A stretch of 50,252 nucleotides of DNA from an uncultured Bacillota bacterium (GTDB lineage Bacteria > Bacillota_I > Bacilli_A > RF39 > UBA660), in the NCBI GenBank assembly GCA_947303895.1, contig CAMYZQ010000002.1, forward strand, positions 1-50,252. Direction: 5' to 3'. The notes beneath the pieces are model-generated. The model had not been told where the DNA came from. It worked only from the letters and a program-made list of their open reading frames with translations, and did no database searches. Position numbers and translations under genes: made by a program. How positions within the stretch are numbered: the first letter of the stretch is position 1; each line of letters starts with the position of its first letter. Positions 1,087 through 50,087 of this stretch are shown here, in pieces.

Positions 1087-2387
1087 CTTATAATACCACA
1101 ATCCTTTACAACTTCTATAAAATCTTCTTTAGAAGTCCATTTATTATCTACATAATCTATTAATTTATTCATAATATTTTCAGACTTTATAAGTCTATAA
1201 ATATCAAGCTTATTATCTAGAATTCTCATATCACCATAGGCAATATCATTTACAAGATCAAAATCTTTTTCATATACATGCATAGAAAAAGCATAATGAG
1301 TATATGATCCATATGATACTCCCAATCTATCTGCAACATATTTCTGAAGAGATATGAAGAAACTTAAATCATAAGACAATCCAAATATCACATCATTACT
1401 TCTCATCACTGTAGTACAATTAAGTTTATTATCTCTTATCATAAAAGATAAACAAATTGTACATATTTCATCTTTCGTATCTTTTACATTAATATTTGGA
1501 GTATTAAAATTCAATATTGCTCTTCTAGATGATGGATCTTGTTTCAGCAAATCTATAATAGTTTCAATCTGATTGAAACCATGCTTTTTCTGTAAAACAT
1601 ATCCATACGCAGAATTACTTGTCACTCCATCATCACTTATCTTATCCCAAAACTTAGAAAAATGTCTGATAAATGCAAGATCATTTCTTCCAGACCAATA
1701 CCACAACATTTCTCCAATAAGATAATTATATGAAATATTTCTAGACTTAAGATTTATAACATCATTCGTAATATCATTTATAGTAAAAGAATAATTACTA
1801 AGTTCTCTATAGTCACCTCTAGTAGTCTTTCCACCACTAATTAATTCACCTTTTTCTATAAGGTCTTTACAAACATTTTTATATGCAATATTTATATTTG
1901 TCTGATTCATTCTAGAAACAATCCAAGACCAAAGTCTATCATAAGCACCATCTAGAGCAATATCTACAACATACATATTATTATATTCCCATGCAGAAAA
2001 TATATAAGCATATTTAGTAAATAACTGATTCTGTTGCTCAATCTCTTCTAGATAATTATATTCTTCTCTTTGAATAAGTCTATCTTTAAGAATATTTATA
2101 TCTGAAGTAATAAAAATTATAAGCAAATCATTATTATCAACTATTGCTCTCATAATCTTATTACCACCATCAAAATCAAACTTTGGTTCTCTTCCATAGA
2201 TTTCTGGATATACAAGCTCTCCTATATGAAATCTATCAAATACAGTATTTCCTTGATACAAAGCATTTAAATGATTTTCCAAAGTTTCAGATGGAAAATG
2301 ATTATAACTCATATTATAATTAGTTACTAACTTATTTGCTAAAGTTGTCTTACCTATTCCATCAGGACCTTCAAGAATTATATTCAT
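1083..2387 (-). CDS. Fusion protein: N-terminal P-loop (d)NMP kinase (thymidylate-kinase-like) plus C-terminal ThyA-family pyrimidine hydroxymethylase (T4 gp42 dCMP hydroxymethylase-like)
   Basis: The N-terminus has the Walker A motif GPDGIGKTT and a DRFHIGELVY motif, as in dTMP kinases. Residues ~165-434 carry ThyA-fold motifs: LIGEMLWYWSG, SNSAYGY and DPSSRRAILNF. The stretch DEICTICLSFMIRDNKLNCTTVMRSNDVIFGLSYD aligns without gaps to T4 gp42 DFMCTNTVQYLIRDKKINAVVNMRSNDVVFGFRND. The catalytic Cys (C309) and the base-discriminating Asp (D340) are both conserved. A strong RBS is present (AGGAGGAAAGTATATG). Confidence 0.75.
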   Translation of the reverse strand: MNIILEGPDGIGKTTLANKLVTNYNMSYNHFPSETLENHLNALYQGNTVFDRFHIGELVYPEIYGREPKFDFDGGNKIMRAIVDNNDLLIIFITSDINILKDRLIQREEYNYLEEIEQQNQLFTKYAYIFSAWEYNNMYVVDIALDGAYDRLWSWIVSRMNQTNINIAYKNVCKDLIEKGELISGGKTTRGDYRELSNYSFTINDITNDVINLKSRNISYNYLIGEMLWYWSGRNDLAFIRHFSKFWDKISDDGVTSNSAYGYVLQKKHGFNQIETIIDLLKQDPSSRRAILNFNTPNINVKDTKDEICTICLSFMIRDNKLNCTTVMRSNDVIFGLSYDLSFFISLQKYVADRLGVSYGSYTHYAFSMHVYEKDFDLVNDIAYGDMRILDNKLDIYRLIKSENIMNKLIDYVDNKWTSKEDFIEVVKDCGIIR

Positions 2388-15478: not shown

Positions 15479-18400
15479 CTATTTATTCATCTTTGTAGTG
15501 ATATATCTAAATGATAGTTCATCAAAGTTTAGTTGTGGGATTACAAATTCATTGTACACGTGATTTGAATTCCAAAACATCTTAGGATTTAAAGGATTTT
15601 CTATTAGATCATTTGACTTAGGAATAAATGAATAATTATATTCTTCTTTATCGTCTAGTTGTTGTATCTTTGTTCTAATATCATTAAATCCCTCTCCTAA
15701 TGCAGGATTATTCTCATATTTAAATATATCTAATACAGTATATGTTACGGTCTTAGAATCTTCATCAATTTCAAACTCTAAACTTGAATCAACAGTAGAT
15801 AAGTCAGCGTAGAATTCAGGTTCTTTATAATATGTTTTACCTGAATCTATACTTGTATCATCAGATAATATATAAGTAGAAGTATCTAATTCATACCAAC
15901 CTTTCTCTTTTGGACTAGCACCAGAAAACATTGATTGATCTACTACTTCTAATAATGAAGAACCTTTATCAGAATAAGTATTATCTGCTAATCTATATGC
16001 TCCATTAACATATACATACCAACCTAATTCATATGGGGATTTATCAGTTAAATAAGTTATTAATGAAGGAAGTTTTATTAAACTATGTAATGAGTCTATA
16101 TCCAGCATTAAATATTCATATCTATCACCTGTGAATATATTCTTTCCTTCATTAGCATATGATCTTAATAAATTAGTATAGGATGAATCAAATGTATATG
16201 CCATATCATCGTATAAAGTTTCAGAAGATACTGCAGGAGCATCTATATTATATCCTTCTTCTATCTTTTTAATATAGTTAGCAGTTAAATTAATATCATC
16301 TTTCATATTCATTCCTAATAGGTAATGACCTGCCGGTAACCCAATAGGTAATGATATTTCTTGTGGAGCATATGATATATCTTCACCTTCTCCAGAAACA
16401 TCTGAATTAAAGTACAAGAAAGTTGAATAGTTACTAGTATCATATGCATAATATGATCCATTTGCAAATGGAACAAATGCATATAACTCATTTAAAACAT
16501 TTTCACCAAGAATATCCACAGTGGAAACATCTATAAAAGTACCTGATTTATTTTCTACAGGATATTTCAATTGGAAAGTAATATTAGTCTGAGTATCTCC
16601 AGATAAAACAGCAATAGGAGTAATACTAGAATCACTATCATATAATTCTAATGAATGATTATATTCCAGTTTTTGACCACTTGTACTTGATGTATTTAAT
16701 ATTAATGAAGAATAACCTCTCCACTTGTATTCATCTACAGACATAGTTTCTAAATCTATAATATCTTCGCCTGCTCTTTGATAAGAAACTTTATAAGAAT
16801 CAAGATCTAATATGCATTCTGTATTACTGAATACTGGCCAATTAACATATGATTCTGACATTTCAGAAGCTTCAAAAATTAAAGTATCATCTGTTGAAAA
16901 TGACTCAATATCATTTTGAATTAATGTTAAAGATGTATTTGTCTGTAATGATGTCCATAAATCTCCTATATTTTTTATAGGATCATTACGTATATAGTCA
17001 TTATCTAATGCTGTGCATGTCCAAGCTTTAATTTCACCACAGTTTCTATTATATAATTCTTTTACTTCATAGTATTGCTTATAAGTATATCTTACAAAAT
17101 CATTAAATAAATAGAATTTTGGTAAGAAGTAAATATGTATTGTACCATATTCACTAACATTATTTTTCGAGTTAGGGAATAATGCTGCAAGTTTTCTATC
17201 TGTATCTAATTTAATAAAAGGATTACTTGTGTCTGGTACATAATAATTTGTATCAAAACCTGTATCACCTTCAAAATTAGAACGCCATATTTCTGAAATA
17301 TAGAAATATGCATTAGATGCTGCAGCAGTTTCACCTTCTAATGCTGGGTAAATATCTCTAACTATTAAAGCTTTATCTATAAGACTATCACTAGTTACTC
17401 TAATATATCGCCCTGTTTGTGGATCTCCAGCAGTAGTTTGTCTGAAATTCTGAACTACCCAAGTCGTATCAACTTTTACCCATTCTGTTGGATCCCATGT
17501 TTCTGAAGAAGTTGCAACAATACATCTATAGTTTTCACTACTATATTTTACAACAGCATCATAATAATAAATGTTATTTGATACATAATCAGGAACTGGA
17601 TAATATGGATATTGATAAGTTACAGCAGATGACCATTTACTATAAATGGCTTCTAATTGGCTTGTACTGTCTGCCTCATTTAAATCTGCACTAGAAAGCG
17701 TATTACTATATAAAGTAAATAAATACTGTAAAGGTGATCTACTATAAGCTCCTTCATACTCTGATAAAACTACACCTGCATCCAAATAAGATTTATTTAA
17801 ATTTCTATAATAATAGTTTGTATTTATAGCACTTGGCTTATAGTAGAAACCAGAATTACTTACATCAGCAGAATATAATGAACTTCTTTCATTAAATAAT
17901 TCTATATTTATAGAATTTTCTATAGAAAGTATTTCTGGAGTTGTATCTGAGGTCAGTATATAATTATCATCTACTTTTTCGTATAAACCTTCTTCATTAG
18001 GATTTGTTAAATATGAAACAACTGCTTCTGCAGAACCAGATGAATCTATATAATAAGTTTTATATATAGGGGATAATAAACCTAAAGCTTCTGGCCCTAC
18101 AGAAAGTGCCTCAGATAAATCTAATGTTGTATAGCTTCCAATATCACCTAGAACTAAATTAGAATATTTTGTTCCAGATAAAATATTCCTGTCTATTGTT
18201 GAAGTATCTTCAGTTGCTGTAAATCTGTTTTGAGACGTAGCTGATGAATTATCATTTAAAGCATAAGTATCTATAAACTTATTATTATTAAATGTTGCCA
18301 ATTCATATAAACCTAATTCTTTAGGGTTACTCAAATCACTTGATTTATAAAGATTTACTTCTTTAAAGCAACCAGTATCAACTGTATCTGATACATAAAC

Positions 18401-21400
18401 TTCTTTTGTTACTCCATTATCATCAGTTATATAAGATTTTATATAACTTCCTGGATCTTTTCTCATTACTAATACATAGTAATATTTACCAGAAACAGAA
18501 GTGCTATCTAATGATCTTATAAATACTGGTTTATAATAATTTGTACCATCAATTACTTTAGTATCATAAGTAATAATATAAGAAATTGATGAATCGTCAT
18601 GAGTAACTTTTTCATATAAACCTAAAGCAAATGGATTAGCATCAGCTGGTAGGCTTTCTGGATTTAATGGGTTTGTTAAATCAACTTCAAATAAACCACT
18701 ATCAAAAGGTTTTACTTTTTGATTATCATCAGTAACGAATTGGAATAAACCATCTGAAATTAAGTGTGCAATATCATCAATGTTTACATAATATAAAGAA
18801 TTTTCAATCTCAGAATATATTGAAGATTCGACACCACAATTTCTAATTAAAGTTGTACCAGGACCTAATACTGCAAAATCTGTACTATCTTCATTTGTAT
18901 AGAATAATGCTTCACCGTTTCTTAATGTATATGTATTAATTGTTTCAGAATACATATTTTGTTCTACACTATCAAAAGTATCAAATAAAGTATATGATTT
19001 TAAATTTGAATTATTTGAATAAGTAGGTTCATTTAAGATCCAAAAGAATTTATATTTATCTTCTCTATCTAAAGTTATAGTAGCAATTTCTTGAATACTT
19101 ATTTCATTAGTACCAGAAATTACATTATTTATGATAGCAGAACTATTCCTTATTTCTGTTTTATAATTTTCATTATATGTTGATATTTCATAATAATTCT
19201 TAGTAGGATTAACTGTAAAATAAGGAATAATTTTTGCTTTAACGAAACTAGATAATGCAGAAACAGAAGCTTGCGGTGCTATATCAAATGAAGGTTTAAT
19301 AATAGTACCAGCACTACACGCATATACAGTATATCCAATTATAGTAGTTGCATCACTATCTTTAATAGGATTATATAATATAAAATATTCATTATTAGCT
19401 AATTTATAAGAAGCTCCTGCTGATATACCTTTATATAAAACATATTCAAAATGTACATTATTAGGAAAAGTCTTTGTTGGGTTAAAATGAGGTCTATATA
19501 ATGAAACAGTTTCATTATCTTTTAATGTATATGTTTTCCTAATAAATGATTCGATATTATCTACTGAATATGATGTTACTGAATCATTTTGAATATCAAT
19601 CTTAGCTTCACCAGTTATATTACTAATATTATCTATGTAACTAATATATTTCTGACTAAGATGATATATAAATGTTTTATCAGGTACTAAAAGTTGAGTA
19701 GTTCCAGCAAGAATAGATTTACACATAATATCTTTTTTCATAGATGATGAAATAATATTTGATAAATCTCTATAGGATTCTGGAGTATATATACTCATAT
19801 CCTCATCTACTGGTATATCAATATATAAATCTTCATTTTTATCATAATAAGTTGCTAACAAAGAATATGAAATAGGATCTATAGTAATATTTTTTATTCT
19901 ATCGTCACTCTTCTTAGCAATATCTACTAAATATTCTACAGATATAGGTAAACCAAAATCTACTTGTGAACTACTAACATTTTCATATAAACTAGCGACA
20001 ATATTACTAGAAATATCTGTTTGTGTTACTTCATCTAATACACTAAATGTAGAAATATTCATTACTACTGGGTATACTGCTTTAAACATTACAGTATGTG
20101 GTAGTAATGCTTCCACATCTATTTCATATACATTAGAATTATCTGCTGGTGGATTATCAAAAGCAGAATCATTAGCAATTAAAGTATAAATATCTTCTTC
20201 TTCATCATATAACCAATAAGATTTATTTGTGAGCCAAGAAGTATCTTCTGATTTCTTATAAGTGTTTTCCCCTAAAGATAAAATATCTTCATAAGTATGC
20301 TCAAGATGTGAAGTATCTCCTAATAAGGAGTTAAAATCAGGATATGGCTTCATCATAGTAAATGTTTGATTATAAGCAGTTTTATTATTTAAAGCTATAG
20401 CTTTTCTTAATAAATAAAACTTTAATGAGAATGGAGTTAAAGCATCTTTTGTTTTTGGAGCAATAGATTCTAATTCATACCAGTTTTCTTGCTTAGGATT
20501 ATGTACTCCAGAAGTATCAGCTTCAGATAAATCGTTATCATGAATTACATAGTATGTTTTACCAGAATCTACTGATGTATCTGTTGATTTTATAAACTTA
20601 TAATCAAAAGTAGATTCAATATTTGTATTATCTACAATTTGCTCTACTTTTACAATTAAAGTATCTAAATCATGGCTCTTGCTTATAATTTTATAAGTGC
20701 ATTGAATATCATTTGTTCTATCACACACAAAAGCATTAGAACAAATATCTAATTCTTGACTTCTAATATAGTTAAGATAATCTCTTAAGGTAATTAAAGT
20801 TTTAAATGTACCTACTGTTCTTTTATAATTTATATAAGCTTCATCAATTCCTTCTACATCTTTGTGACCAGAGGCTGAAGCAAAATTAGTAATTTTTACA
20901 TTACTAGAATCAAGAACAATGCCTTCAACGTCTCCTCCTACTGAAATAGGAGCTAAGAATTGATTTAATGATTGAGCAGGAATATTAGCAGTTTCTTGTG
21001 GAATTACTAAGTAAGTAATTTCAATACCACTTCCAAATAATTCTGCATAGTTATCAGGAAATTCTAGATAACAAGTATCAGTATTACTATCATATCCAAA
21101 AATATATCTTAATTCATCGTATGAATTTTCATATAAATTATTTACTCTTTTCCAAGAAGAATAATTTTCTTGGTTTGTATTTTTTATAAAAACTCCATTT
21201 TGAGAAACAAAAGAATGAGGAAAATATAATCTTCTCGATAACGGATCTACCATCTGAGCAGTAATAATCTTTTCATTCTCAAACTGATACTGTACTGCAG
21301 TACCTTCCATTGCTACTACATTAACTGCTTTACCATCTGTAGATAATATAGTATTAGATACTACAACCCCTTCTGCTCCTTCTGTCCCTATTATAGAATA

Positions 21401-21808
21401 TATATGAGCAGATTCTGAATCTGTAATAGGAGTAAATTTAGGAATTATATAAGATATTGAAGTGTCAGTAGTACTACCTATCCAAGATATTGAAACAGGA
21501 ACTGAAGCACTTTCATACCAATCCATATAATAACCTAACTGATCATATAATTGTCTAGCATTACCTTCTTGTGTCACTGAAAGTGGAAATGTTTCTAATA
21601 TATTTTTATCAATATTATAGTTACATTTATCAGCTATTAAAGCAGATAATTTTACTAGAATAACACCTGGATCAGATTCGTCAGATATAGATGGATCCCA
21701 TCTATATGTTAATTGCTTAATTAAATCTAAAACTTCTGTGTATATTGCTGAGAAATCTAGATTCGTATAAGAAATTTTTTGATTTTCATTTACTATGTCT
21801 TGTGCCAT
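15479..21808 (-). CDS. Giant (2109 aa) baseplate J-like protein with a long repeat-bearing extension
   Basis: The N-terminus DESDPGVILVKLSALIADKCNYNIDKNILETFPLSVTQEGNARQLYDQLGY is typical of the baseplate J/gp6/gp47 family. The gene follows the gp25-like gene. The ORF is uninterrupted for 6.3 kb. Confidence 0.7.
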   Translation of the reverse strand: MAQDIVNENQKISYTNLDFSAIYTEVLDLIKQLTYRWDPSISDESDPGVILVKLSALIADKCNYNIDKNILETFPLSVTQEGNARQLYDQLGYYMDWYESASVPVSISWIGSTTDTSISYIIPKFTPITDSESAHIYSIIGTEGAEGVVVSNTILSTDGKAVNVVAMEGTAVQYQFENEKIITAQMVDPLSRRLYFPHSFVSQNGVFIKNTNQENYSSWKRVNNLYENSYDELRYIFGYDSNTDTCYLEFPDNYAELFGSGIEITYLVIPQETANIPAQSLNQFLAPISVGGDVEGIVLDSSNVKITNFASASGHKDVEGIDEAYINYKRTVGTFKTLITLRDYLNYIRSQELDICSNAFVCDRTNDIQCTYKIISKSHDLDTLIVKVEQIVDNTNIESTFDYKFIKSTDTSVDSGKTYYVIHDNDLSEADTSGVHNPKQENWYELESIAPKTKDALTPFSLKFYLLRKAIALNNKTAYNQTFTMMKPYPDFNSLLGDTSHLEHTYEDILSLGENTYKKSEDTSWLTNKSYWLYDEEEDIYTLIANDSAFDNPPADNSNVYEIDVEALLPHTVMFKAVYPVVMNISTFSVLDEVTQTDISSNIVASLYENVSSSQVDFGLPISVEYLVDIAKKSDDRIKNITIDPISYSLLATYYDKNEDLYIDIPVDEDMSIYTPESYRDLSNIISSSMKKDIMCKSILAGTTQLLVPDKTFIYHLSQKYISYIDNISNITGEAKIDIQNDSVTSYSVDNIESFIRKTYTLKDNETVSLYRPHFNPTKTFPNNVHFEYVLYKGISAGASYKLANNEYFILYNPIKDSDATTIIGYTVYACSAGTIIKPSFDIAPQASVSALSSFVKAKIIPYFTVNPTKNYYEISTYNENYKTEIRNSSAIINNVISGTNEISIQEIATITLDREDKYKFFWILNEPTYSNNSNLKSYTLFDTFDSVEQNMYSETINTYTLRNGEALFYTNEDSTDFAVLGPGTTLIRNCGVESSIYSEIENSLYYVNIDDIAHLISDGLFQFVTDDNQKVKPFDSGLFEVDLTNPLNPESLPADANPFALGLYEKVTHDDSSISYIITYDTKVIDGTNYYKPVFIRSLDSTSVSGKYYYVLVMRKDPGSYIKSYITDDNGVTKEVYVSDTVDTGCFKEVNLYKSSDLSNPKELGLYELATFNNNKFIDTYALNDNSSATSQNRFTATEDTSTIDRNILSGTKYSNLVLGDIGSYTTLDLSEALSVGPEALGLLSPIYKTYYIDSSGSAEAVVSYLTNPNEEGLYEKVDDNYILTSDTTPEILSIENSINIELFNERSSLYSADVSNSGFYYKPSAINTNYYYRNLNKSYLDAGVVLSEYEGAYSRSPLQYLFTLYSNTLSSADLNEADSTSQLEAIYSKWSSAVTYQYPYYPVPDYVSNNIYYYDAVVKYSSENYRCIVATSSETWDPTEWVKVDTTWVVQNFRQTTAGDPQTGRYIRVTSDSLIDKALIVRDIYPALEGETAAASNAYFYISEIWRSNFEGDTGFDTNYYVPDTSNPFIKLDTDRKLAALFPNSKNNVSEYGTIHIYFLPKFYLFNDFVRYTYKQYYEVKELYNRNCGEIKAWTCTALDNDYIRNDPIKNIGDLWTSLQTNTSLTLIQNDIESFSTDDTLIFEASEMSESYVNWPVFSNTECILDLDSYKVSYQRAGEDIIDLETMSVDEYKWRGYSSLILNTSSTSGQKLEYNHSLELYDSDSSITPIAVLSGDTQTNITFQLKYPVENKSGTFIDVSTVDILGENVLNELYAFVPFANGSYYAYDTSNYSTFLYFNSDVSGEGEDISYAPQEISLPIGLPAGHYLLGMNMKDDINLTANYIKKIEEGYNIDAPAVSSETLYDDMAYTFDSSYTNLLRSYANEGKNIFTGDRYEYLMLDIDSLHSLIKLPSLITYLTDKSPYELGWYVYVNGAYRLADNTYSDKGSSLLEVVDQSMFSGASPKEKGWYELDTSTYILSDDTSIDSGKTYYKEPEFYADLSTVDSSLEFEIDEDSKTVTYTVLDIFKYENNPALGEGFNDIRTKIQQLDDKEEYNYSFIPKSNDLIENPLNPKMFWNSNHVYNEFVIPQLNFDELSFRYITTKMNK

Positions 21809-22380: not shown

Positions 22381-23163
22381 CTAATCGGTTGTTTTTGTGT
22401 ATTCGCAAATAATATAGGCCGATGTGATATTGGTTAAATTTGAACCTACTTCAATATAGATATTACCACCCGAATAATATATGCCTATTTGATATGCGAA
22501 TGTACTTAAATGGGCTTTAGGTATTGGTGCTTGTGCTCCGCTCGACTCTTTCTCTATACCTCTCAATGTAACAAGAGTGTCGATGTTGCTCGGTGCGGTT
22601 ATAGTATTAAGACCTGTTGTTAGATTTGCTGGTATTACCTTCCTGTAAATAGGCTTTCCATCAATCCAAGTGCCTACTTGCTGTTCCTCTGTTGAATAAT
22701 TAGGAAATTCGACTTGAGGAGGAGCTACTCTTTCATACTTTATGCCATAGATTTTATAAGGGATAGCTCTATCCGACCAATTTGTATAAGCGTTCCCACT
22801 ATAGGTCATTTGCCCGTTTCCAAAAGTTATACCGCTTGTGTTAACAGAAAAATCTCTTGCAACGCCATTAATAAATGTTGAAGCATTTGTTGCTGTTTCA
22901 GTGTTAAGCAATTGATATGCAAGGTTACTTCCTGCTCCTACTGGGCATCGTACAGAATATGTATTAACAATGTTTCCTAAAAAAGTAGCAACTATTTCAA
23001 CTTCGTCATATTCGCTTAGATTAAGTCCTACTGTTTGCGCTGCAAAAGCCGCGGCAGGACTCGAATTCGTCCAAAGCAACTTTTTATACTCACTTGGTGT
23101 TGGTGGTAATACCTCATTCAGTATTGCTGTTAGGTCATTTTTTGTTATTGTTTCGCTAATCAT
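22381..23163 (-). CDS. Tail fibre/receptor-binding cassette protein; paralogue of the N-terminal domain of 24832..26424
   Basis: LLWTNSSPAAAFAAQTV..EYDEVEIVATF...AIPYKIYGIKYE parallels LLWTNENPFSQFAAQTL..DYDIVEIESY...CIPYRIYGIKIG in the 530-aa protein. Confidence 0.55.
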   Translation of the reverse strand: MISETITKNDLTAILNEVLPPTPSEYKKLLWTNSSPAAAFAAQTVGLNLSEYDEVEIVATFLGNIVNTYSVRCPVGAGSNLAYQLLNTETATNASTFINGVARDFSVNTSGITFGNGQMTYSGNAYTNWSDRAIPYKIYGIKYERVAPPQVEFPNYSTEEQQVGTWIDGKPIYRKVIPANLTTGLNTITAPSNIDTLVTLRGIEKESSGAQAPIPKAHLSTFAYQIGIYYSGGNIYIEVGSNLTNITSAYIICEYTKTTD

Positions 23164-23172: not shown

Positions 23173-23709
23173 TTACTTCCAAGTGCCAATGGCGTGTGAA
23201 AGAATAGCAATACTCCTTGTGCCATTTGCTGAACACCATAAATATCCACCATAATATGTATTGCTGATAGTGCTTGGACAGAATGAAACCAATCCGCCAC
23301 CACCAAGCACACCAAATGTTATTGTCGGATTAGCATTAAACAATCCTGTAGGGAATGACCTATTCGTAATATCTGCATAGTATCCGTAGCCTTCCTGTGA
23401 TGAGAATGTTGTAGTCCCAATCTGCCGTCTTTCCCAACATTCTGCAATACCACTATTCCATTTTCGATATGTCCAACTATCACTTATGCCTTGTTCGATA
23501 ACATAATCTGCGAGATTTGCTCCTTGAGTATCAAGACTATTTACTAAATTTGTTATTTCAGTAGAAGTCATATCTGTAGAATTCATTTTAGCAGAATTAT
23601 CAAATTTTGAAATAGTATTTGCAGTAGGAATAGCTGAAGATGGAACATCTCCTCCACCTCCTCCATTTGATCCTGTATATTCTTGATTTTTATAATAAAT
23701 TTTTCCCAT
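23173..23709 (-). CDS. Tail fibre-associated protein (Gly-rich N-terminus, WTYRKW..ECW C-terminal domain)
   Basis: GGGGGD linker, SWTYRKWNSGIAECWERR motif, and position inside the fibre cassette. Confidence 0.45.
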   Translation of the reverse strand: MGKIYYKNQEYTGSNGGGGGDVPSSAIPTANTISKFDNSAKMNSTDMTSTEITNLVNSLDTQGANLADYVIEQGISDSWTYRKWNSGIAECWERRQIGTTTFSSQEGYGYYADITNRSFPTGLFNANPTITFGVLGGGGLVSFCPSTISNTYYGGYLWCSANGTRSIAILSHAIGTWK

Positions 23710-23717: not shown

Positions 23718-24821
23718 CTATGCTGTTCTATGCCATCTATTAACTACGATATATGGTTGCATGTTATTATGCGCTTGCCCACCACCAGTTGGTCCTACAC
23801 CACCACTTGCTTCTGTTTGAGCAGAACGAGTACCTCCTGATGAAGCATAATTGTATCCCCAGTTAACAGCACTACCACCGGCATATAACATTGTATGTGT
23901 ATGACTTGGCATTTCATTAACAATTAAAGTATGTGTTGCTTCACCACCTGTATCACCTGCTATATAATTTTGACCAGCACTTACGTGTACTTGACCTTCT
24001 GTTTCTAATACCCAAGTACCACCAAAAGCGATATTAGGATCAAATGTAGTATCAGAAGTTTCATAATAACTCCCTACTGGATAGAAATAATTCACCATAG
24101 AAAGTAAACTAGTATCTGAAAAACTTTGATCTTGTGCTTTTATAATATAATTTGTTACTACTGTATTAGGTTGAACAGTTGTTGAATTACCATAAATGGA
24201 ATTTGAATTTGAAGCACTAAAATTAATAGGACTTCTATATGCATTCGTTATACCAGAACCAGAAATTTCAAGTGCTCCAGAAACACCATCACTAAATATA
24301 GTTTCACCTGCAGTCCTTATAGCGCCACTTGCAGAAACAACTGTATTATTTCCTGCAGCTGAGGGTTGTAACAAAGCCTGCCCTTCAATATTTGGAAGTC
24401 CAGCATCAACTTCATCGCCAAGAGAATAAGTAATACTATCTATAGTACCTGCGCCAGTAATAACTCTACCTTGTAAATCTGGAAGATTGAAAGTAGTAAT
24501 ACCATCTCCAGAACCAAATAAAGTTCCAATCACGGTAAATAATTCACTATATAAGCTTCTACTAACTGCTGAACCGTCACACAGTAACCAACCAGAAGGA
24601 GCAGAAGATCCACCATAAGCTTGTATAGAGCCTATTGGGGCTGGATCATTTACTATAATCGTATCAGGAATACTGTCTGTTATAAAATAAATAGTTCCAT
24701 TATTTTTTTCAGCTAATGTTAAAGCATCATATCTAGCTTGAGTCATCTCTACACAGTTTTTACCTGTTATAGTTATATCGGCTACGCCATATTCTTTACC
24801 TGTTTTATAAATATAAGGCAT
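23718..24821 (-). CDS. Tail fibre protein with phage tail-collar domain(s)
   Basis: SGWLLCDGSAVSRSLYSELFTVIGTLFGSGDGITTFNLPDLQGRV is a canonical tail-collar motif. GDTGGEATHTLIVNEMPSHTH...AHNNMQPY is also present. I moved the start to ATG 24821 (MPYIYK) because AGGAGG lies 6 nt upstream. Confidence 0.75.
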   Translation of the reverse strand: MPYIYKTGKEYGVADITITGKNCVEMTQARYDALTLAEKNNGTIYFITDSIPDTIIVNDPAPIGSIQAYGGSSAPSGWLLCDGSAVSRSLYSELFTVIGTLFGSGDGITTFNLPDLQGRVITGAGTIDSITYSLGDEVDAGLPNIEGQALLQPSAAGNNTVVSASGAIRTAGETIFSDGVSGALEISGSGITNAYRSPINFSASNSNSIYGNSTTVQPNTVVTNYIIKAQDQSFSDTSLLSMVNYFYPVGSYYETSDTTFDPNIAFGGTWVLETEGQVHVSAGQNYIAGDTGGEATHTLIVNEMPSHTHTMLYAGGSAVNWGYNYASSGGTRSAQTEASGGVGPTGGGQAHNNMQPYIVVNRWHRTA

Positions 24822-24831
24822 ATATTTCCTC

Positions 24832-26424
24832 CTAAGCAACACGATGCCAAATAACTACTAAAATTGCTGGTGGCTGAACTGTAGTTGAATTACCATATAT
24901 TGAATTTGAAAGGGAAGCATTTATACCTATATCTGACCATCCTGAGCCTGCTGCACGTCCACTAAGATAATATTGAGTACCTGACATACTTTCAGCATAT
25001 AAGGCTCCAGAAAAAGATCCACCTGAATATGGACTACCAGAATAAGTAGTATTTGCATGTGCTACACCTGTAATATTAGGAAGTCCCGCAGCGACCTCAT
25101 CACCAACTTTACTATTATTTGTTGTAGCCTGTAAAAATTTTCCTTCTTCTACTTTTTCCCAAGTTCCACCCCATCGTATATTTGGGTCAAAAGTTGCATC
25201 AGAAGTTTCATAATAGCTTCCTATTGGATAAAAGAAATCAAGTTGTGATTGATTTTCGGATAATGCAGATTTAGCTTTGATTATGTAGTTTGTTACTACA
25301 TAAGGCTGCATGTTATTGTGAGCTTCATCATTACCAAATTTATATCCAACATCAGCCCAAGATTCAGCTCCAGATGTTGCCCCAGTAGTTTGATATTGTG
25401 AAGCAACTCGTGTGCCATAAAAATGACCATTAACGTGATAAACATGAGTACCGTGTTCTTGCCCATGCCAAGCTAAATGGCCATCAATTAATGGTAACTC
25501 ATTTTCAACAAGAGTATGAGTAGATTCTCCACCAGTATCTCCTAAACCATAAGTTGCACTCGCACCAACTGCGACGTTTCCTCTCAAATCCGGAATATTA
25601 AATGTTGTACTTCCATCACCAGCTCCATAGGTTGTTCCTATTACTAAGAATAATTCAGAATATGCTGTTCTACTTATAGCTCTACCATCACATATAAGCC
25701 AATAAGACGGATCAACTGTGCCACCATAAGGAGCAATCATTCCTATTGGAGTATTATCATCTAGAAATACATTTTTAGATATTCCATCTGTTATAAAATA
25801 AACAGTACCGTCATCTTTTTCTACTTCTGGAAGAATATCGAACTCAGCTTGAGACATTTCTTCATGGCTAGTATCTCCAATATTAAGATCATCTGAAGAA
25901 AGTCCTTCAACTAAAGTAACTCCATTTATAGAAGGCTTGTGTATAAGAAGATTATAATCACTAGTACCTCTACCTTCTACATCCTCTGTACCTGAACCAA
26001 TTTTAATGCCATAAATACGATATGGAATACACATATCATTTCTCATAGCCCAGTTATTATTTGGATAACCACCATAAGCATTATCAAATACTATTCCAGA
26101 TGATGATGGAGTAACTTTTCTAGTAGCAAACCAGAAAACGCCTGAAGCATAATTACTACCACCAAATGCTCCTGATTGCATACAACCAGTTTCATTCATA
26201 TGTACTGTTATAGGTATAGTAGTTTGTCTATTAGAAGAATTAGTAATATAAATATAGGATTCTATTTCTACAATATCATAATCTTCTAATTCTCCTTGAG
26301 TTAATAATGTTTGAGCAGCAAATTGTGAAAAAGGATTTTCATTAGTCCATAAAAGAGTTTTTCTTTCTACTTTAGATAAATAATGAGAAGCATTATTTAC
26401 CCATTTTTTCATATCTAATTCCAT
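24832..26424 (-). CDS. Tail fibre protein with phage tail-collar domain(s)
   Basis: YWLICDGRAISRTAYSELFLVIGTTYGAGDGSTTFNIPDLRGNV and GDTGGESTHTLVENELP...AHNNMQPY. RBS AGGAG lies 8 nt upstream. Confidence 0.75.
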   Translation of the reverse strand: MELDMKKWVNNASHYLSKVERKTLLWTNENPFSQFAAQTLLTQGELEDYDIVEIESYIYITNSSNRQTTIPITVHMNETGCMQSGAFGGSNYASGVFWFATRKVTPSSSGIVFDNAYGGYPNNNWAMRNDMCIPYRIYGIKIGSGTEDVEGRGTSDYNLLIHKPSINGVTLVEGLSSDDLNIGDTSHEEMSQAEFDILPEVEKDDGTVYFITDGISKNVFLDDNTPIGMIAPYGGTVDPSYWLICDGRAISRTAYSELFLVIGTTYGAGDGSTTFNIPDLRGNVAVGASATYGLGDTGGESTHTLVENELPLIDGHLAWHGQEHGTHVYHVNGHFYGTRVASQYQTTGATSGAESWADVGYKFGNDEAHNNMQPYVVTNYIIKAKSALSENQSQLDFFYPIGSYYETSDATFDPNIRWGGTWEKVEEGKFLQATTNNSKVGDEVAAGLPNITGVAHANTTYSGSPYSGGSFSGALYAESMSGTQYYLSGRAAGSGWSDIGINASLSNSIYGNSTTVQPPAILVVIWHRVA

Positions 26425-26435: not shown

Positions 26436-28469
26436 CTATAGATTATTCATAACATCAAACCAACCAAGAGCTGAAATTACTGTATATAATGAATTATCCA
26501 AAGTACTTGAAGTTTCATACTCAGGCATTCTTAAAAAGAAATCATTTGAAAACATAATTCCTTGATTCCAAATTTCATTTTCAGGATGATCTTCTTTTTC
26601 TACCTGTGAATAATCTACTGCTTCTTCAAAAAATGCTATAACATCACCATTTTTATTTATATCTCTTATTATCTTTGGTGGATATATATTTATAGTAACT
26701 GAAGGTAGACTTTTACCAAAACTATCTTTAACTCCAGAAATAGTTAATGTATACTCTGTAGTATCTGGATCAACTAGTTTTCCACCAGTAGTTCCTGTAG
26801 TTCTATAAACAACAAATAGATCAGAAGTATTAGAATTTAAATTAGTTACTTTGTTAAAATAAACAGTATCTAAATTTATTTCTATAGGTTGTTCATCAGA
26901 AACACTTATTAAAGTTGCAGTAATAGTAGATAAATCTAAAGAAACTCCTGAAGCTCCTATTGCTGTCCTAAATACAGCACATGCAGCTAAGTCATCATCT
27001 ACTACTGATAAAGGAATAGTCGATAATTGACCTGAAGCATATTGAAAATACATTTGTACTGTAATAGCATCAGAAATATAGTTATATAAACTAGTATATG
27101 GAGATACAAGACTTATTGTATTGTCTTTATATATTGGATATACATAAACAGTATCTATTACTTGATTTAATACAGACCCAAATTTTAAAAATCCTTCTGC
27201 TTCAAGATCACTATTGGTATAATCATATGGAACTATACCAGCAGGGAATGAAACCCCATATTCTGTATAGACTTTAGAATTTGGTTTTTCTGTAGTCCAA
27301 TAACCAGTAAAAGTATAATTTGTTATATCTGGAGCAGTTATATTTTCAATAGTATATGAAGTATATTGAATTGTAGTTCCTACATATAACTCCACATAAG
27401 AATTTGGGTCAGAAAAATTTCTTTCTAAAGCTGTTCTATAATATCTTATATTAATAATTGTAGGAGACCATACTGCATATAATACAGTATCTTTATCTAT
27501 ATTCCATAAAATAGTTGAATCTTCAAGATACTGTGGTGCTTCTGTATTAGCAACTGCTGACCAACCTTTAAATGTGTATCCCTGCTTAGTTAAAGATTCA
27601 CCAGAAGGTAATGTAATATTTGAATCATAGGTAGCTACTATAGTTTGAGGTACTTCCCCTTCTGCTCCATTAGCATTAAAACTTACATCGTATGTATTTG
27701 CTTCCCATTGAGCAGTAAGAGTTAAAGAAGAAGGAATAACATTTGCTGCTTTAACAACATCTCCTTCTTGTATTATAGTACCGTCATCAGATCTTTTCCA
27801 ACCTTGAAAAGTATAACCTACAGCAGATATAGATGCAGCTGTAGTTGCTGCAGTATATCTCATAGTAACTGCAGCAGGAGCAGTACCATGACCACCATTA
27901 TTATAAGTTAAAGTAGCAGTATTTTCTTTCCAATATGCGTATAATGTTGCCCCTGACTCAGAAGTATATGTAGTATTATAATTAGTACCACCACCTCCAG
28001 TACCAGTACACCAACCGCCAAAAGTATATCCTGTTTTTGTAGGTGATGGTAAACCTAAGGCATAACCATAAGTCTTAGTAAGAGGTGAAGATACTGCAGA
28101 ACCACCTTGAGAATCTAAGTACACTGTAAAATATCTATTTATCTTAGTTAAAGTAATAGATTTAGATGTTGAAATAGTCCCAGGTGATACACCTGTTTTA
28201 TATTTTGCACTTACTGAAACTGTTTTAGATCCGTCAGCATTATGAGTAACAGTTTTAGATTTAGTCGCAAGTGTTGTAGTAGTATTTTTAGCAAAATAAT
28301 GTTTAAAACTATATGAGGTACCATCAATCGTAATGGTACCAGTACATGAATCTTGCTGATTATATGTACCATTAGTAGATTTTACTTTTAATACTGCTGT
28401 TACAACAGAAGTATTCGCTGCTGTATTTACACTAGATTCAGAAAGAGTTAATGATAGAGATGCACCCAT
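26436..28469 (-). CDS. Tail/baseplate-associated adhesin-like protein with three Listeria-Bacteroides (InlB B-type) repeats
   Basis: Three repeats each end GYTFGGW..LYAYW, GYTFQGW..LTAQW and GYTFKGW..LYAVW (aa ~113-336). The N-terminal ~110 aa is Ser/Thr-rich and beta-type. Confidence 0.6.
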   Translation of the reverse strand: MGASLSLTLSESSVNTAANTSVVTAVLKVKSTNGTYNQQDSCTGTITIDGTSYSFKHYFAKNTTTTLATKSKTVTHNADGSKTVSVSAKYKTGVSPGTISTSKSITLTKINRYFTVYLDSQGGSAVSSPLTKTYGYALGLPSPTKTGYTFGGWCTGTGGGGTNYNTTYTSESGATLYAYWKENTATLTYNNGGHGTAPAAVTMRYTAATTAASISAVGYTFQGWKRSDDGTIIQEGDVVKAANVIPSSLTLTAQWEANTYDVSFNANGAEGEVPQTIVATYDSNITLPSGESLTKQGYTFKGWSAVANTEAPQYLEDSTILWNIDKDTVLYAVWSPTIINIRYYRTALERNFSDPNSYVELYVGTTIQYTSYTIENITAPDITNYTFTGYWTTEKPNSKVYTEYGVSFPAGIVPYDYTNSDLEAEGFLKFGSVLNQVIDTVYVYPIYKDNTISLVSPYTSLYNYISDAITVQMYFQYASGQLSTIPLSVVDDDLAACAVFRTAIGASGVSLDLSTITATLISVSDEQPIEINLDTVYFNKVTNLNSNTSDLFVVYRTTGTTGGKLVDPDTTEYTLTISGVKDSFGKSLPSVTINIYPPKIIRDINKNGDVIAFFEEAVDYSQVEKEDHPENEIWNQGIMFSNDFFLRMPEYETSSTLDNSLYTVISALGWFDVMNNL

Positions 28470-36934: not shown

Positions 36935-37486
36935 CTATATGTAATGTATGTTTAATTTATCTTGATCTATATCTTTATAGAATAAATGATTAATTGTCCA
37001 GTTTAATTTAGTAGTTTCATAATCATCTTTAGGTTTTGGTAAATAAATATCTGTTAATCTAGGATTATTAGAAAAAATAGCTCCTTTTAATTTTGGAACA
37101 GACTTAAAAGTAACTTTTCTTAAATTTTTGCAGCCTTTAAATACTGAACTTCCTATCTCTTCTAAAGAAGATGGAAAAGTAATTTCTTCTAAATCTTTGC
37201 AACCATAAAATGAAGCATACCCTACAGTTTTTATTCCTTCATTAATAGAAATATTTTTTTCTCCTATCTTTAAATTTGCAAAACACCATTCAGGAATACT
37301 TTTTTTAAAATAAGATAAAGGATTAGCTCCTCTACTTAAAAAGAATTGTGTAAAACTAGATAAATAGCCATTACCCCATTCATCTCTCATTTTTTCATAA
37401 AATGCATCTAAGTCATTTCTTTTAAGTAGCATTTTATTTTCTTTTAAAATTTTAATAGCCCAATTATTTAATTCTTCAGGTGTCAT
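36935..37486 (-). CDS. Leucine-rich repeat protein (BspA-type LRR_5)
   Basis: GYASFYGCKDLEEITFPSSLEEIGSSVFKGCKNLRKVTF is a typical BspA-like LRR signature. Confidence 0.55.
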   Translation of the reverse strand: MTPEELNNWAIKILKENKMLLKRNDLDAFYEKMRDEWGNGYLSSFTQFFLSRGANPLSYFKKSIPEWCFANLKIGEKNISINEGIKTVGYASFYGCKDLEEITFPSSLEEIGSSVFKGCKNLRKVTFKSVPKLKGAIFSNNPRLTDIYLPKPKDDYETTKLNWTINHLFYKDIDQDKLNIHYI

Positions 37487-37812
37487 TTCTCAAATTCCAA
37501 TCCAGCATTTAGTGATGGCAAATCTAAAATAGTTCCAGGTTTCGGATTAACAAAAGGATTTGTTATTCTATTATAATCGCATATGATCCAGTAATATGTA
37601 GGATTATTATAAAATTCTAACGCAATAGTATCCCAAGTATCTTTTTCTTTTACTGTATAAGAAGTAACCTTAGAAAGGTCTACAAATTCTTTCAGCCAAT
37701 GTCTTGTTTCTAATTGATACTTATCATCTAAATGATTATAATAATAAAATAATCCATTATATCTGGAATAATAATTACTAGTTTTAGCAGTTTTACTTGT
37801 TAATACATTCAT
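37483..37812 (-). CDS. LysM-like tail protein (P2 gpX / XkdP-like)
   Basis: YTVKEKDTWDTIALEFYNNPTYYWIICDYNRITNPF..PGTILDLP is a LysM-like pattern. The gene lies between the tape measure and the hub. Confidence 0.55.
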   Translation of the reverse strand: MNVLTSKTAKTSNYYSRYNGLFYYYNHLDDKYQLETRHWLKEFVDLSKVTSYTVKEKDTWDTIALEFYNNPTYYWIICDYNRITNPFVNPKPGTILDLPSLNAGLEFEK

Positions 37813-48567: not shown

Positions 48568-49158
48568 TTACTCCTCACCAGAAGATAAAGCAAAAGCTTC
48601 TTCTATTTCATTTTGATCTCTCATATAACTTGTCATAGGTCTTACTTCTTCAGATTCAAATATATTATAATCTTCAGTAGCAGCTATTGCTTCAGCTGTA
48701 AGACCATAAGTAGTTTCATCAAATGCATTAGTATATTCTGGAACTATTTCACAGGTTATTGAAGCTGGATAAACCATGCTTGTAGCCATTTTAACTACTC
48801 TAAATAATCTTCCATTTCCATCATCAAGACCACTTGGAACAATAAACATACTCCCTTGTTGTAAATTAGGTAAATCATAATCTACATGAATAAAAGAAGA
48901 ATTTTCATCTAATTCAGACATCCAACCCATTTTTCTTAAAGTTTGCTGTGATGGGTGTTCATCAAATATACAACCAACTAATAAAGGTGGATTATAATTA
49001 GCATCTATTTCTGCATATGTAGTGTATTTTCTACCAGGCTTTGGAGATCTGTAAAGAACTCTTATACCTATAAGTTTACACATCTCACGAAAGTACTGCC
49101 TCCATTGTCTAGCATCTGGCGTAATTAATATTCCGTATTTTTGATTATCCATATTCAT
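48568..49158 (-). CDS. Putative neck/tail-completion protein (196 aa)
   Basis: The call is by synteny. Its first 23 codons have a diverged duplicate at 50170-50238. Confidence 0.35.
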   Translation of the reverse strand: MNMDNQKYGILITPDARQWRQYFREMCKLIGIRVLYRSPKPGRKYTTYAEIDANYNPPLLVGCIFDEHPSQQTLRKMGWMSELDENSSFIHVDYDLPNLQQGSMFIVPSGLDDGNGRLFRVVKMATSMVYPASITCEIVPEYTNAFDETTYGLTAEAIAATEDYNIFESEEVRPMTSYMRDQNEIEEAFALSSGEE

Positions 49159-50087
49159 TATCTTTCCTTAAATATTGTCATGCCTTTATAAAAATCTGGA
49201 TTATCATTTAAAAATGATTCTACTTTATCATTTTTTATACGTCTATTCTTTAAACCATTAGTTACATACGTGGTACCACCACAAGAAGACTTTACAAGTC
49301 CTTTTGTGCCTTTATATGGACAAGGATGACCTTGTTTACGCTTATTAGTAGGAAGTCCTCCAAGCTCATATCCATTATACATATACTCATTTAAGTTTTC
49401 TTTAGAAATTTTAGTTTCTTTTTTTAATTTTAAATTATGTACAACTACATAGCCCTTAGATTTTTGACTTGTTAAATGAGAATGTCCTATAACATATCCT
49501 TTAGACAAATAAATATCCAATTCATTTTTATTAATAAGTCGATCTACTCCATCTTTAGTTACACTTACTTTATTTTTTAAAATATTATTTCCTAACTCAA
49601 ATCCTAAATCAAGATAGTCTTGTAACTCTTCTTTTAATATAGTATGAACTTCTAGTCCTTTAGAAACTTGAATTCTTCCTTTCATGCTATTACTTATTTG
49701 TTTTGATCTACTTTTACTATCACAAAATTCTGTTTGTAATAATTCATAATTAGTTAAAGAATAAATAAAATCTTTATCATCTCCAAATGCTCTTTGAAGA
49801 ACTAATATATTAGCAATTTTAAACCATTCCTCTTTAGAACATAAAGCTAAATAATAATGAGCTAATAAATGATCTTTTATTAATAGATTAACTTTATTAT
49901 TTAATGAATTATCTATAGAAATATTATTATGACGAAAATAACATTTAGGTACTATATGATGGGAATGTGTTTTATATTTTTCTTTTATTGTTGTACTATT
50001 TCTTTCTATTAAATCTATATATTTATCTAAATATTCATTATTAGTAACTATATCTAAATTTAATAGATAATTCTTTAAAGAATCCAT
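49158..50087 (-). CDS. Free-standing HNH homing endonuclease with repeated C-terminal DNA-binding modules
   Basis: HSHHIVPKCYF...NKVNLLIKDHLLAHYYL is an HNH motif. The GFELG / GYVIG / GYELG / FYKGM motif repeats every ~30-45 aa, as in NUMOD/IENR-type repeats. The gene has its own RBS (AAGAGG) and an AT-rich upstream region. Confidence 0.8.
   Translation of the reverse strand: MDSLKNYLLNLDIVTNNEYLDKYIDLIERNSTTIKEKYKTHSHHIVPKCYFRHNNISIDNSLNNKVNLLIKDHLLAHYYLALCSKEEWFKIANILVLQRAFGDDKDFIYSLTNYELLQTEFCDSKSRSKQISNSMKGRIQVSKGLEVHTILKEELQDYLDLGFELGNNILKNKVSVTKDGVDRLINKNELDIYLSKGYVIGHSHLTSQKSKGYVVVHNLKLKKETKISKENLNEYMYNGYELGGLPTNKRKQGHPCPYKGTKGLVKSSCGGTTYVTNGLKNRRIKNDKVESFLNDNPDFYKGMTIFKER

What the first reader, a model, noticed from the sequence alone, without database searches (positions are those of the whole stretch)
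23718..26424. Two adjacent tail-collar fibre genes built from the same four modules in reciprocally swapped order
The 530-aa protein has this order:
- collar A1 (PIGMI..DLRGNV)
- X (GDTGGESTHTLVENELP..AHNNMQPYVV), then TNYIIKA
- A2 (FFYPIGSYYETSDATFDPNIRWGGTW)
- Y (GDEVAAGLPNITG..SNSIYGNSTTVQP), then WHRVA

The 374-aa protein has this order:
- A1 (PIGSI..DLQGRV)
- Y (GDEVDAGLPNIEG..SNSIYGNSTTVQP), then TNYIIKA
- A2 (YFYPVGSYYETSDTTFDPNIAFGGTW)
- X (GDTGGEATHTLIVNEMP..AHNNMQPYIV), then NRWHRTA

The distal halves (X and Y) are therefore exchanged between the two genes, while the junction peptides are conserved. Nucleotide similarity persists at the junctions, for example gttgaattaccata.at.gaatttgaa at ~24181 and ~24883. 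That provides recombination substrates, so this looks like a built-in module-shuffling system for receptor-binding tips.
Basis: seen in the sequence. Interest (0 to 1): 0.65.

Follow-up and report, generated by a model that had tools for sequence, protein, structure and literature searches.

The report
Swappable cores in paired tail-fibre genes
Two neighbouring tail-fibre genes of a ruminant-gut phage each carry two conserved domain frames whose inner "core" segments are replaced like cassettes by recombination at conserved border motifs, a familiar way for phages to change host-binding proteins, seen here in a different protein family.

Summary
The 530-aa and 374-aa (probably 367-aa) proteins share four modules, and the two cores X and Y sit in exchanged positions. 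X-X and Y-Y alignments score z=15, while the colinear X-Y pairs score z=0.

Each protein has a Collar (T4 gp12-like) frame followed by a Gp10_C (T4 gp10-like) frame. Each frame is split by a variable core. The closing strand (NYIIKA or WHRxA) stays with its frame, not with the core.

Three metagenomic relatives are 97-99% identical in the flanks but carry different core interiors. Every break lies in a junction motif. In one relative, found in two independent studies, the first-domain core of the long gene is 97% identical in DNA to the second-domain core of the window's short gene. So cores do move between genes and between domain positions.

Inside this genome, however, the paired modules share only their border motifs. 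Exact DNA runs are 18 nt or less, and there is no excess codon identity at the junctions. I found no reverse transcriptase, recombinase or inverted repeats. Other family members show many other core combinations.

This is evolutionary cassette exchange at conserved motifs, as in T-even gp37/gp38. It is not a built-in shuffling device, and the reciprocal order is incidental.

The parts
24832..26424 (-). Long tail-fibre gene (530 aa): N-terminal domain, adaptor, D1 (Collar frame with X core), D2 (Gp10_C frame with Y core)
   Evidence: ORF. [quoted passage not shown] PHROG tail proteins.
25990..26424 (-). Long protein aa 1-145: N-terminal domain, homologous to the N-terminal half of the 260-aa ORF. 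Replaced in relative L003.
25573..25752 (-). A1 of the long protein (aa 225-284): Collar frame, N-terminal part
   Evidence: Pfam Collar 228-284; dot-plot; coordinates
25300..25542 (-). X core of long D1 (aa 295-375): GDTGGE...His-rich interior...HNNMQPY
   Evidence: Replaced in L002 and L003. In run X1 its depth is 12.8 against 37-49 on the flanks.
25273..25299 (-). Closing strand of D1 (VVTNYIIKA, aa 376-384). It stays with the Collar frame.
25159..25236 (-). A2 of the long protein (aa 397-422): Gp10_C frame, N-terminal part
   Evidence: Pfam Gp10_C 395-439; 97-nt direct repeat D1 at 75%
24871..25104 (-). Y core of long D2 (aa 441-518): GDEVAAGLPNITG...SNSIYGNSTTVQP
   Evidence: Replaced by a Z-type module in L003 and by another 401-nt segment in run X7.
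24835..24870 (-). Closing strand of long D2 (PAILVVIWHRVA). It stays with the Gp10_C frame.
23718..24842 (-). Short tail-fibre gene (374 aa from GTG; probably 367 aa from the ATG at 24821): adaptor, D1 (Collar frame with Y core), D2 (Gp10_C frame with X core)
   Evidence: ORF. Pfam Collar 4e-24 and Gp10_C 7.5e-15 over the full profile, 1-139. P0100 is 367 aa.
24462..24641 (-). A1 of the short protein (aa 68-127)
24168..24419 (-). Y core of short D1 (aa 142-225). At least four alternative interiors occur among near-identical relatives.
   Evidence: Joints 24194>24387 (run X4) and 24197>24387 (run X10). 86% DNA identity to the D1 core of L003's long gene.
24135..24167 (-). Closing strand of short D1 (NTVVTNYIIKA)
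24012..24089 (-). A2 of the short protein (aa 252-277)
23751..23957 (-). X core of short D2 (aa 296-364) with the SHTH (HxH) motif. The same cassette sits in D1 of the long gene in L002 and run X5.
23721..23750 (-). Closing strand of short D2 (IVVNRWHRTA)
23173..23709 (-). 178-aa tail-fibre-like ORF. Its C-terminal 'Z' domain (WTYRKWNSGIAECW...) also occurs as the D2 core of the long protein in L003.
   Evidence: phrog_2712; blastp 1e-11 to 2e-14
22381..23163 (-). 260-aa ORF. Its N-terminal half is homologous to the long protein's N-terminal domain. Its C-terminal half is replaced in L001 and L003.

Best explanation
The two genes encode paralogous baseplate fibre or receptor-binding proteins of an uncultured contractile-tailed phage from ruminant gut, about 28% G+C.

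Each protein carries two tandem domains of the T4 gp10/gp11/gp12 fold family:
- D1 is a Collar-type frame, made of A1 plus the closing strand NYIIKA.
- D2 is a Gp10_C-type frame, made of A2 plus the closing strand WHRxA.

Each frame is interrupted by a large inserted core of about 70-85 aa. The core comes in several types:
- X: bordered by GDTGGE..H.L and HNNMQPY; the HxH motif (SHTH) is seen in the short protein's X core, not in the long protein's.
- Y: bordered by GLPNIxG and YGNSTTVQP, with no HxH.
- Z and others.

Shown here:
- The frames are nearly invariant among close relatives, while the core interiors are replaced wholesale.
- The replacement borders fall in the conserved motifs.
- Identical cores occur in different genes and in different domain positions.
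- Several alleles coexist within single gut samples.

Inferred:
- Exchange happens by homologous or short-homology recombination, during co-infection or replication, in the DNA that encodes the conserved border motifs.
- The cores form the exposed, receptor-contacting part of a trimer.
- Host-receptor diversity selects for the variety.

The reciprocal X/Y plus Y/X layout of this particular phage is one combination among many. The X pair and the Y pair inside this genome are old relatives, not products of a recent swap.
For: Domain identity:
- Pfam Collar and Gp10_C and PHROG tail families.
- PDB sequence hits to the cyanophage A-1(L) tail fibre 8kec and the T5 L-shaped fibre 8hqz.
- Foldseek hits to 8kec, T4 gp12 (1ocy, 5iv5) and the gp10 C-terminal domain (2fkk, 2fl8).

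Cassette behaviour:
- L001, L002 and L003 have the same gene order and 97-99% identical flanks.
- The protein alignment shows invariant frames and unrelated core interiors.
- Identity breaks map to GDEVDAGLPNI / YGNSTTVQP, GDTGGEATHTL / HNNMQPY and YGAGDGSTTF / QPYVVTNY.

Transfer between genes and between domains:
- L002's long D1 equals the window's short D2 core over 208 nt at 97%. The same arrangement is in run X5 from another study.
- L003's long D1 matches the window's short D1 Y core at 86% over 377 nt.

Family-wide:
- X interiors compared between D1 and D2 have a median identity of 28%, but 15 pairs reach 80% or more, in three independent subtypes. One Y subtype is shared between D1 and D2 at 60%.
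- All core combinations occur in both long and short paralogues.

Polymorphism within samples:
- Depth drops and contig breaks fall at module borders, and alternative-core joints are seen in runs X1, X4, X5, X7 and X10.
Against: - No experiment shows that these proteins bind a receptor, form trimers or bind metal.
- The AF2 monomer model was poor (mean pLDDT 59) and left the core interiors unmodelled (pLDDT below 50). The claim that the core is an exposed insert rests on analogy with T4 gp10/gp12.
- Neither the recombination mechanism nor whether exchange occurs within one genome or between co-infecting phages can be told from assemblies.
- Within this genome the junction homology is short (exact runs of 18 nt or less). 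The parental sequences of the observed events were presumably more alike than these two genes are.
- All relatives are metagenome contigs.
Confidence: 0.8

Rival explanations
1. One reading: a built-in shuffling system within one genome. The junction repeats would be maintained as recombination sites so that one phage genome regularly reshuffles X and Y between its two genes to produce new receptor-binding tips.
For: - Direct repeats do exist at the junctions.
- A core has demonstrably moved between the two gene positions in a close relative.
- One 156-nt unitig in run X6 (depth 2.2) joins short-gene codon 257 to long-gene codon 402, in register within A2, with no mismatches to the window on either side.
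Against: - The junction repeats are only 74-85% identical over 26-48 nt, and the longest exact run is 18 nt or less.
- Codon identity at identical residues is 0.42-0.57 at the junctions against 0.40-0.69 in the frames, so nothing beyond protein-level constraint is conserved.
- The core interiors of the X pair and of the Y pair in this genome are unrelated.
- No recombinase, reverse transcriptase or inverted repeats were found in the window.
- Reciprocity is not conserved across the family.
- The X6 unitig is low-depth and could be a library chimera.
Confidence: 0.07
2. No exchange at all. X and Y would be ancient alternative core families, each combination would be an old vertical lineage, and the shared borders would reflect only structural constraint.
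For: - Within this window only the border motifs are shared and the interiors are unrelated.
- Codon identity at the junctions is not elevated.
- Y-like 'PNITG' motifs occur as far away as the T5 L-shaped fibre.
Against: - Near-identical DNA cassettes (97%) sit in different frames and different genes, within backgrounds that are otherwise 98% identical.
- At least four alleles occur per core site among phages that are 95-99% identical elsewhere.
- Identity of 86-96% between D1 and D2 interiors stands against a median of 28%.
Confidence: 0.05
3. Assembly artefact. The swapped arrangements would come from mis-joins of metagenome contigs at repeated motifs.
For: All sequences are metagenome assemblies, and Logan contigs break at module borders.
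Against: - The window's arrangement is reproduced at 98% in an independent ENA assembly (L001) and in contigs from several runs.
- The L002 arrangement occurs in two studies (runs X3 and X5).
- Exact repeats between the genes are 18 nt or less, shorter than the 31-letter words on which the Logan contigs are indexed (the assembler's k is taken as 31 from memory).
- All reading frames are intact.
Confidence: 0.03

Closest known systems
[quoted passage not shown] 1996 and 1998, Trojet et al. 2011; PMC3157838)
   Same: - Conserved short motifs flank hypervariable segments.
- Exchanges occur within or near the conserved motifs.
- Chimeric adhesins arise among related phages and between adjacent genes.
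- Diversity is networked at the level of the population rather than held in one genome.
   Different: - The protein family is different: Collar/Gp10_C frames, not gp38 glycine-rich motifs or gp37 His boxes. No sequence match to those was seen.
- The exchanged unit is a 70-85 aa insert within a domain, and it fits two frames that show no sequence similarity to each other (A1 against A2, z about 0.4 to 2.2).
- Nothing here has been tested by crosses.
T4 gp12 short tail fibre receptor-binding domain and gp10 C-terminal domain (PDB 1OCY, 2FKK)
   Same: - Pfam Collar and Gp10_C matches and Foldseek hits.
- An HxH motif in the short protein's X core, like gp12 His445/His447.
- A core fold decorated by big inserted loops.
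   Different: - Here the two domain types are fused in tandem within one protein, and that protein is duplicated.
- Some cores (Y, Z) lack the HxH motif.
- Sequence identity to T4 is low (about 20-23% in the Foldseek alignments).
Cyanophage A-1(L) tail fibre (PDB 8kec) and MdpB-like 'microcystin-dependent protein' tail-collar proteins
   Same: The A1-X-NYIIKA layout is the standard full domain. 8kec aligns from the collar through GDxGG and HxH to QPY. Actinophage minor tail proteins match P530 residues 214-387 at about 43%.
   Different: Those proteins carry one such domain with an X-type core. They lack the tandem arrangement with alternative cores.
Programmed tail-fibre variation: diversity-generating retroelements (Bordetella phage BPP-1 Mtd) and invertible segments (Mu Gin, P1 Cin)
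   Same: The outcome is similar: alternative receptor-binding tips on a constant frame.
   Different: No reverse transcriptase, template repeat, invertase or inverted repeats were found. Variation is by whole-cassette replacement with length changes, not adenine-specific substitution or inversion.

Membership tests
Pfam PF07484 Collar (phage tail collar domain) | Profile match above the gathering score (24 bits) | tested here: met
   P374 scores 84.7 bits (residues 71-128). P530 scores 77.2 bits (residues 228-284).
Pfam PF21939 Gp10_C (T4 gp10 C-terminal domain) | Profile match above the gathering score (27 bits) over the whole domain | tested here: met
   P374 scores 56.5 bits over profile positions 1-139 of 139 (residues 249-373). 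P530 scores 34.1 bits, but its best stretch covers only profile positions 2-46 (residues 395-439), because the Y core replaces the canonical X-type core.
T4 gp12-type knitted metal-binding head | HxH motif that coordinates a metal on the trimer axis | tested here: inconclusive
   The SHTH motif is present in the X core of P374. The X core of P530 is His-rich but not canonical, and the Y cores lack the motif. Metal binding and trimer formation cannot be tested with these tools. The gp12 facts come from PMC3004832.
T4 gp10/gp11/gp12 fold family | Structural superposition on the common core fold | tested here: inconclusive
   Foldseek probabilities are 0.97-1.0 for 1ocy, 2fkk, 5iv5 and 8kec, but TM-scores are only 0.15-0.33 because the model is poor (pLDDT 59).
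Motif-bounded recombinational adhesin cassettes (the T-even gp37/gp38 kind) | Hypervariable segments bounded by conserved motifs, with recombination breakpoints in those motifs | tested here: met
Motif-bounded recombinational adhesin cassettes (the T-even gp37/gp38 kind) | Homology to gp38 or to the gp37 C-terminus | tested here: not met
   No such Pfam or PHROG family appears among the hits. This locus works like that kind but is not a member of that protein family.
Diversity-generating retroelement | Reverse transcriptase plus a template/variable repeat pair that differs at adenines | tested here: not met
   No reverse transcriptase among the window ORFs scanned. No repeat pair of that kind. 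The rest of the phage genome, which exceeds 80 kb, was not seen.
Invertible-segment or shufflon tail-fibre switches | Site-specific recombinase plus inverted crossover sites flanking alternative 3' exons | tested here: not met
   All genes lie on one strand. The only inverted repeats are 35 nt or less, and those longer than 18 nt are at most 80% complementary. No recombinase was found.

The most novel reading that the evidence does not exclude
Collar-type and Gp10_C-type frames, which show no sequence similarity to each other, accept the same 'head' inserts. The four core sites of the two genes, together with the Z and N-terminal modules of the two downstream genes, would then form one combinatorial cassette pool. 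That pool would be reshuffled by ectopic recombination often enough to be seen as coexisting variants, and possibly as fresh in-register chimeras, within single ruminant-gut samples. If so, the junction motifs are natural, portable splice points for receptor-binding cores.
Probability: 0.25. Interest if true: 0.6.

Novelty: new member of a known kind. Interest (0 to 1): 0.4.

Why it matters
The locus gives a clean natural example of where a widespread class of phage fibre domains (Collar/MdpB-like and Gp10_C) can be cut and re-joined. The exchangeable unit is the insert between the N-terminal half of the frame and its closing strand, and the same insert works in two different frames. That helps when reading the very common 'tail collar' annotations in metagenomes, when predicting which residues decide host range, and when choosing swap points for tests of receptor-binding chimeras in laboratory phage-host pairs. 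It also shows that strain-level diversity of a ruminant-gut phage is concentrated in four small cassettes. It does not reveal a new diversification mechanism.

Tried and rejected
- No close phage in the GenBank phage collection: a megablast of 8.7 kb found nothing, and tblastn found only the standard collar domain in actinophages and others.
- IMG/VR and JGI metagenome scans gave only distant relatives, 53% identity or less over the full length, mostly rumen. The close relatives came from exact-protein look-ups in ENA and Logan.
- The AF2 monomer with a 46-sequence alignment modelled the frames but not the cores. I could not show directly where X and Y sit, and I did not spend the second job because the fold is an intertwined trimer.
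- I looked for DNA-level conservation at the junctions beyond what the protein sequence requires and found none.
- I looked for a rule of reciprocity, each genome holding X/Y plus Y/X, and found none outside this lineage. The contig grouping in that test used contig length as a proxy.
- All the runs are held as contigs, not reads, so rare variants could not be counted. The single chimeric unitig in run X6 stayed unconfirmed in sister runs.
- A literature search found no description of core swapping in Collar/Gp10_C proteins.
Full report
**What is there**

The window is a low-G+C stretch (26-36%) of a contractile-tailed phage, with every ORF of 90 aa or more on the minus strand except two short ones (94 and 116 aa) that lie inside minus-strand genes. 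It encodes:
- tail sheath, tube, tape measure, a spike-like OB protein and a gp25-like wedge protein;
- a 2109-aa baseplate protein;
- DNA polymerase A, primase, DnaB-type helicase, a SNF2 helicase and thymidylate synthase.

Between the spike-like gene and the gp25-like gene lie five fibre-like genes. The finding concerns two of them: 24832..26424 (530 aa, 'long') and 23718..24842 (374 aa from a GTG start, 'short'). The short gene probably starts at the ATG at 24821, giving 367 aa. That is the form held in the protein collection and the form called in relatives.

**Checking the observation**

A windowed protein dot-plot shows that the two proteins are not simply colinear:
- A1, the NYIIKA strand, A2 and the WHRxA strand lie on the colinear diagonals.
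- The borders of X (long 290-312 and 362-381) match short 291-313 and 351-370.
- The borders of Y (long 438-456 and 501-523) match short 139-157 and 208-230.

Against 500 shuffles, X-X and Y-Y score z=15.4 and z=15.5. The colinear pairs, X against Y, score z=0.0 and z=-0.7.

The DNA gives the same picture at 74-85% identity over 26-97 nt.

Only the first 15-20 and the last 15-20 residues of each core are shared. The interiors of the two X cores, and of the two Y cores, are unrelated.

**What the modules are**

- Pfam places A1 in Collar (PF07484).
- In the short protein, the whole of A2 + X + WHRTA matches Gp10_C (PF21939) over the full profile.
- In the long protein, Gp10_C matches essentially only A2, because Y takes the place of the usual core.
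- A1 + X + NYIIKA is the standard full 'tail collar / MdpB' domain found in hundreds of phages and in the solved cyanophage A-1(L) fibre 8kec.
- A Y-like 'PNITG' motif occurs in the T5 L-shaped fibre 8hqz.

An AF2 monomer model gave the frames pLDDT 75-86 and the core interiors below 50. Foldseek placed the model with 8kec, T4 gp12 (1ocy, 5iv5) and the gp10 C-terminal domain (2fkk, 2fl8).

According to the T4 tail review PMC3004832:
- gp12 residues 342-397 form the collar;
- His445 and His447 of the three chains hold a Zn ion on the axis.

The SHTH motif of the short protein's X core fits that HxH motif.

My reading is that each domain is a frame (A1 plus NYIIKA, or A2 plus WHRxA) interrupted by an inserted core. 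This explains why the closing strand travels with the frame and not with the core. This topology is inferred, not shown. I also recall, from memory only, that in gp12 the last residues return to the collar.

**Comparative evidence**

Exact-protein look-ups found three close relatives with the same gene order: L001 (ENA), L002 and L003 (Logan). Their flanks are 97-99% identical to the window, but identity collapses inside the cores.

The protein alignments are striking. N-termini, A1, linkers, A2 and C-terminal strands are almost invariant, while core interiors are replaced by unrelated sequences of different length:

| Core site | Window | L001 | L002 | L003 |
|---|---|---|---|---|
| Short D1 | Y, window type | different interior | same as window | different interior |
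| Short D2 | X, window type | same as window | different interior | different interior |
| Long D1 | X, window type | about the same as window | different core (the window's short D2 cassette) | a Y core |
| Long D2 | Y, window type | same as window | same as window | a third type, Z |

Sliding identity puts every break in a junction motif: GDEVDAGLPNI / YGNSTTVQP, GDTGGEATHTL / HNNMQPY, YGAGDGSTTF / QPYVVTNY, or FFYP.

The D1 core of L002's long gene is the window's short-gene D2 core:
- It is 97% identical over 208 nt (window 23751-23958).
- A three-way DNA alignment shows L002 following the short-gene sequence from the GDTGGE codons to the HNNMQPY codons, and the long-gene sequence outside them.
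- The same arrangement appears as paired joints (25299>23751 and 23955>25541) in run X3, which is the source of L002, and in run X5 from a different study.

The D1 core of L003's long gene is 86% identical over 377 nt to the window's short-gene D1 Y core. So among four genomes there are two transfers between genes, and one of them is also a transfer between domain positions.

**The wider family**

About 160 homologues were retrieved, nearly all from metagenomes and most annotated Collar + Gp10_C. I sorted them by motif.

- Both the long (about 500-550 aa) and short (about 340-400 aa) forms occur with D1/D2 cores X/X, X/Y, Y/X, X/Z, X/other and Y/other; Y/Z was seen only in long forms.
- Comparing core interiors only, D1-against-D2 X pairs have a median identity of 28%.
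- Fifteen such pairs reach 80% or more, in three independent subtypes: P0002-P0100 at 96%, P0017-P0024 at 94% and P0004-P0060 at 94%.
- The window's long-D2 Y subtype is 60% identical to a D1 core, P0054.
- Contigs that carry two or three paralogues show no rule of reciprocity.

**Populations**

The locus is found in goat and bovine gut metagenomes. These runs are held only as contigs, so rare variants are invisible. Even so:
- Contigs break at module borders.
- In run X1 the window-type long-D1 core has depth 12.8 against 37-49 on the flanks.
- Alternative interiors appear as 'skip with N letters between' joints in runs X4, X5, X7 and X10.

This gives at least four alleles at each short-gene core site and at least three at each long-gene site.

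One 156-nt unitig in run X6 (depth 2.2) joins short-gene codon 257 to long-gene codon 402. The joint is in register within A2, and both sides match the window without a mismatch. It may be a fresh ectopic recombinant or a library chimera. I treat it only as a hint.

**Is it a built-in system?**

I found nothing that points to dedicated machinery:
- no reverse transcriptase or site-specific recombinase among the ORFs scanned;
- no inverted repeat longer than 35 nt, and none over 18 nt more than 80% complementary; no perfect direct repeats;
- all genes on one strand.

Within this genome the two genes share exact runs of 18 nt or less. The fraction of identical codons at identical residues is 0.42-0.57 at the junctions and 0.40-0.69 in the frames. 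The nucleotide similarity at the junctions is therefore what protein conservation and A/T-rich codon usage would give. From general knowledge, such short homology is a poor substrate for RecA-type recombination, though phage recombinases tolerate less. The observed events probably involved parents that were more alike at the junctions.

**Conclusion**

- The idea that conserved junctions act as crossover points, and that cores move between the two genes, is supported by comparative data.
- The idea of a programmed, self-contained shuffling device is not supported.
- The reciprocal order in this phage is one of many combinations.
- The new element is the protein family and the unit exchanged: an insert within a domain that fits two different frames.
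- I rate it a new member of a known kind, of moderate interest.

Noticed in passing
window 22381-23163 (-) and 25990-26424 (-): The N-terminal domain of the long fibre protein (LLWTNENPFSQFAAQT...IPYRIYGIK) is homologous to the N-terminal half of the 260-aa ORF two genes downstream. The C-terminal half of that ORF is replaced by unrelated sequence in L001 (236 aa) and L003 (249 aa), although the flanks are 98-99% identical.
   Followed up: partly
window 23173-23709 (-); L003 4345-5991: The C-terminal 'Z' domain of the 178-aa ORF (WTYRKWNSGIAECW...) also occurs as the D2 core of the long fibre protein in L003, and at the C-terminus of L003's 249-aa ORF. The module pool therefore spans four adjacent genes.
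   Followed up: partly
window 24073-24154 joined to 25146-25219 (run X6): A 156-nt unitig of depth 2.2 joins the short gene to the long gene, in register within A2, with no mismatch to the window on either side. It could be a fresh ectopic recombinant or a library chimera.
   Followed up: partly
window 15479-21808 (-): A 2109-aa ORF sits directly after the gp25-like wedge gene. It is presumably a giant baseplate or fibre protein. It is 98-99% conserved in L001 and L003.
   Followed up: no
window 26436-28469 (-): A 677-aa protein carries a DUF859 N-terminus and three Listeria-Bacteroides repeat (Flg_new) domains. It lies just upstream of the fibre pair.
   Followed up: no
window 36935-37812 (-): A BspA-type leucine-rich-repeat protein (183 aa) and a LysM-domain protein (109 aa) lie inside the tail module, next to the tape-measure gene.
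   Followed up: no
window 49158-50087 (-): An HNH or homing-endonuclease-like ORF (309 aa) lies among the tail genes, about 1.3 kb upstream of the tail-sheath gene.
   Followed up: no
window 1083-2387 (-): A 434-aa ORF combines a thymidylate-synthase domain with an N-terminal part that resembles thymidylate kinase or a P-loop protein.
   Followed up: no
window 25300-25542 (-): The X core of the long protein is unusually rich in histidine (GHLAWHGQEHGTHVYHVNGH) and lacks the canonical PSHxH motif seen in the short protein's X core.
   Followed up: no
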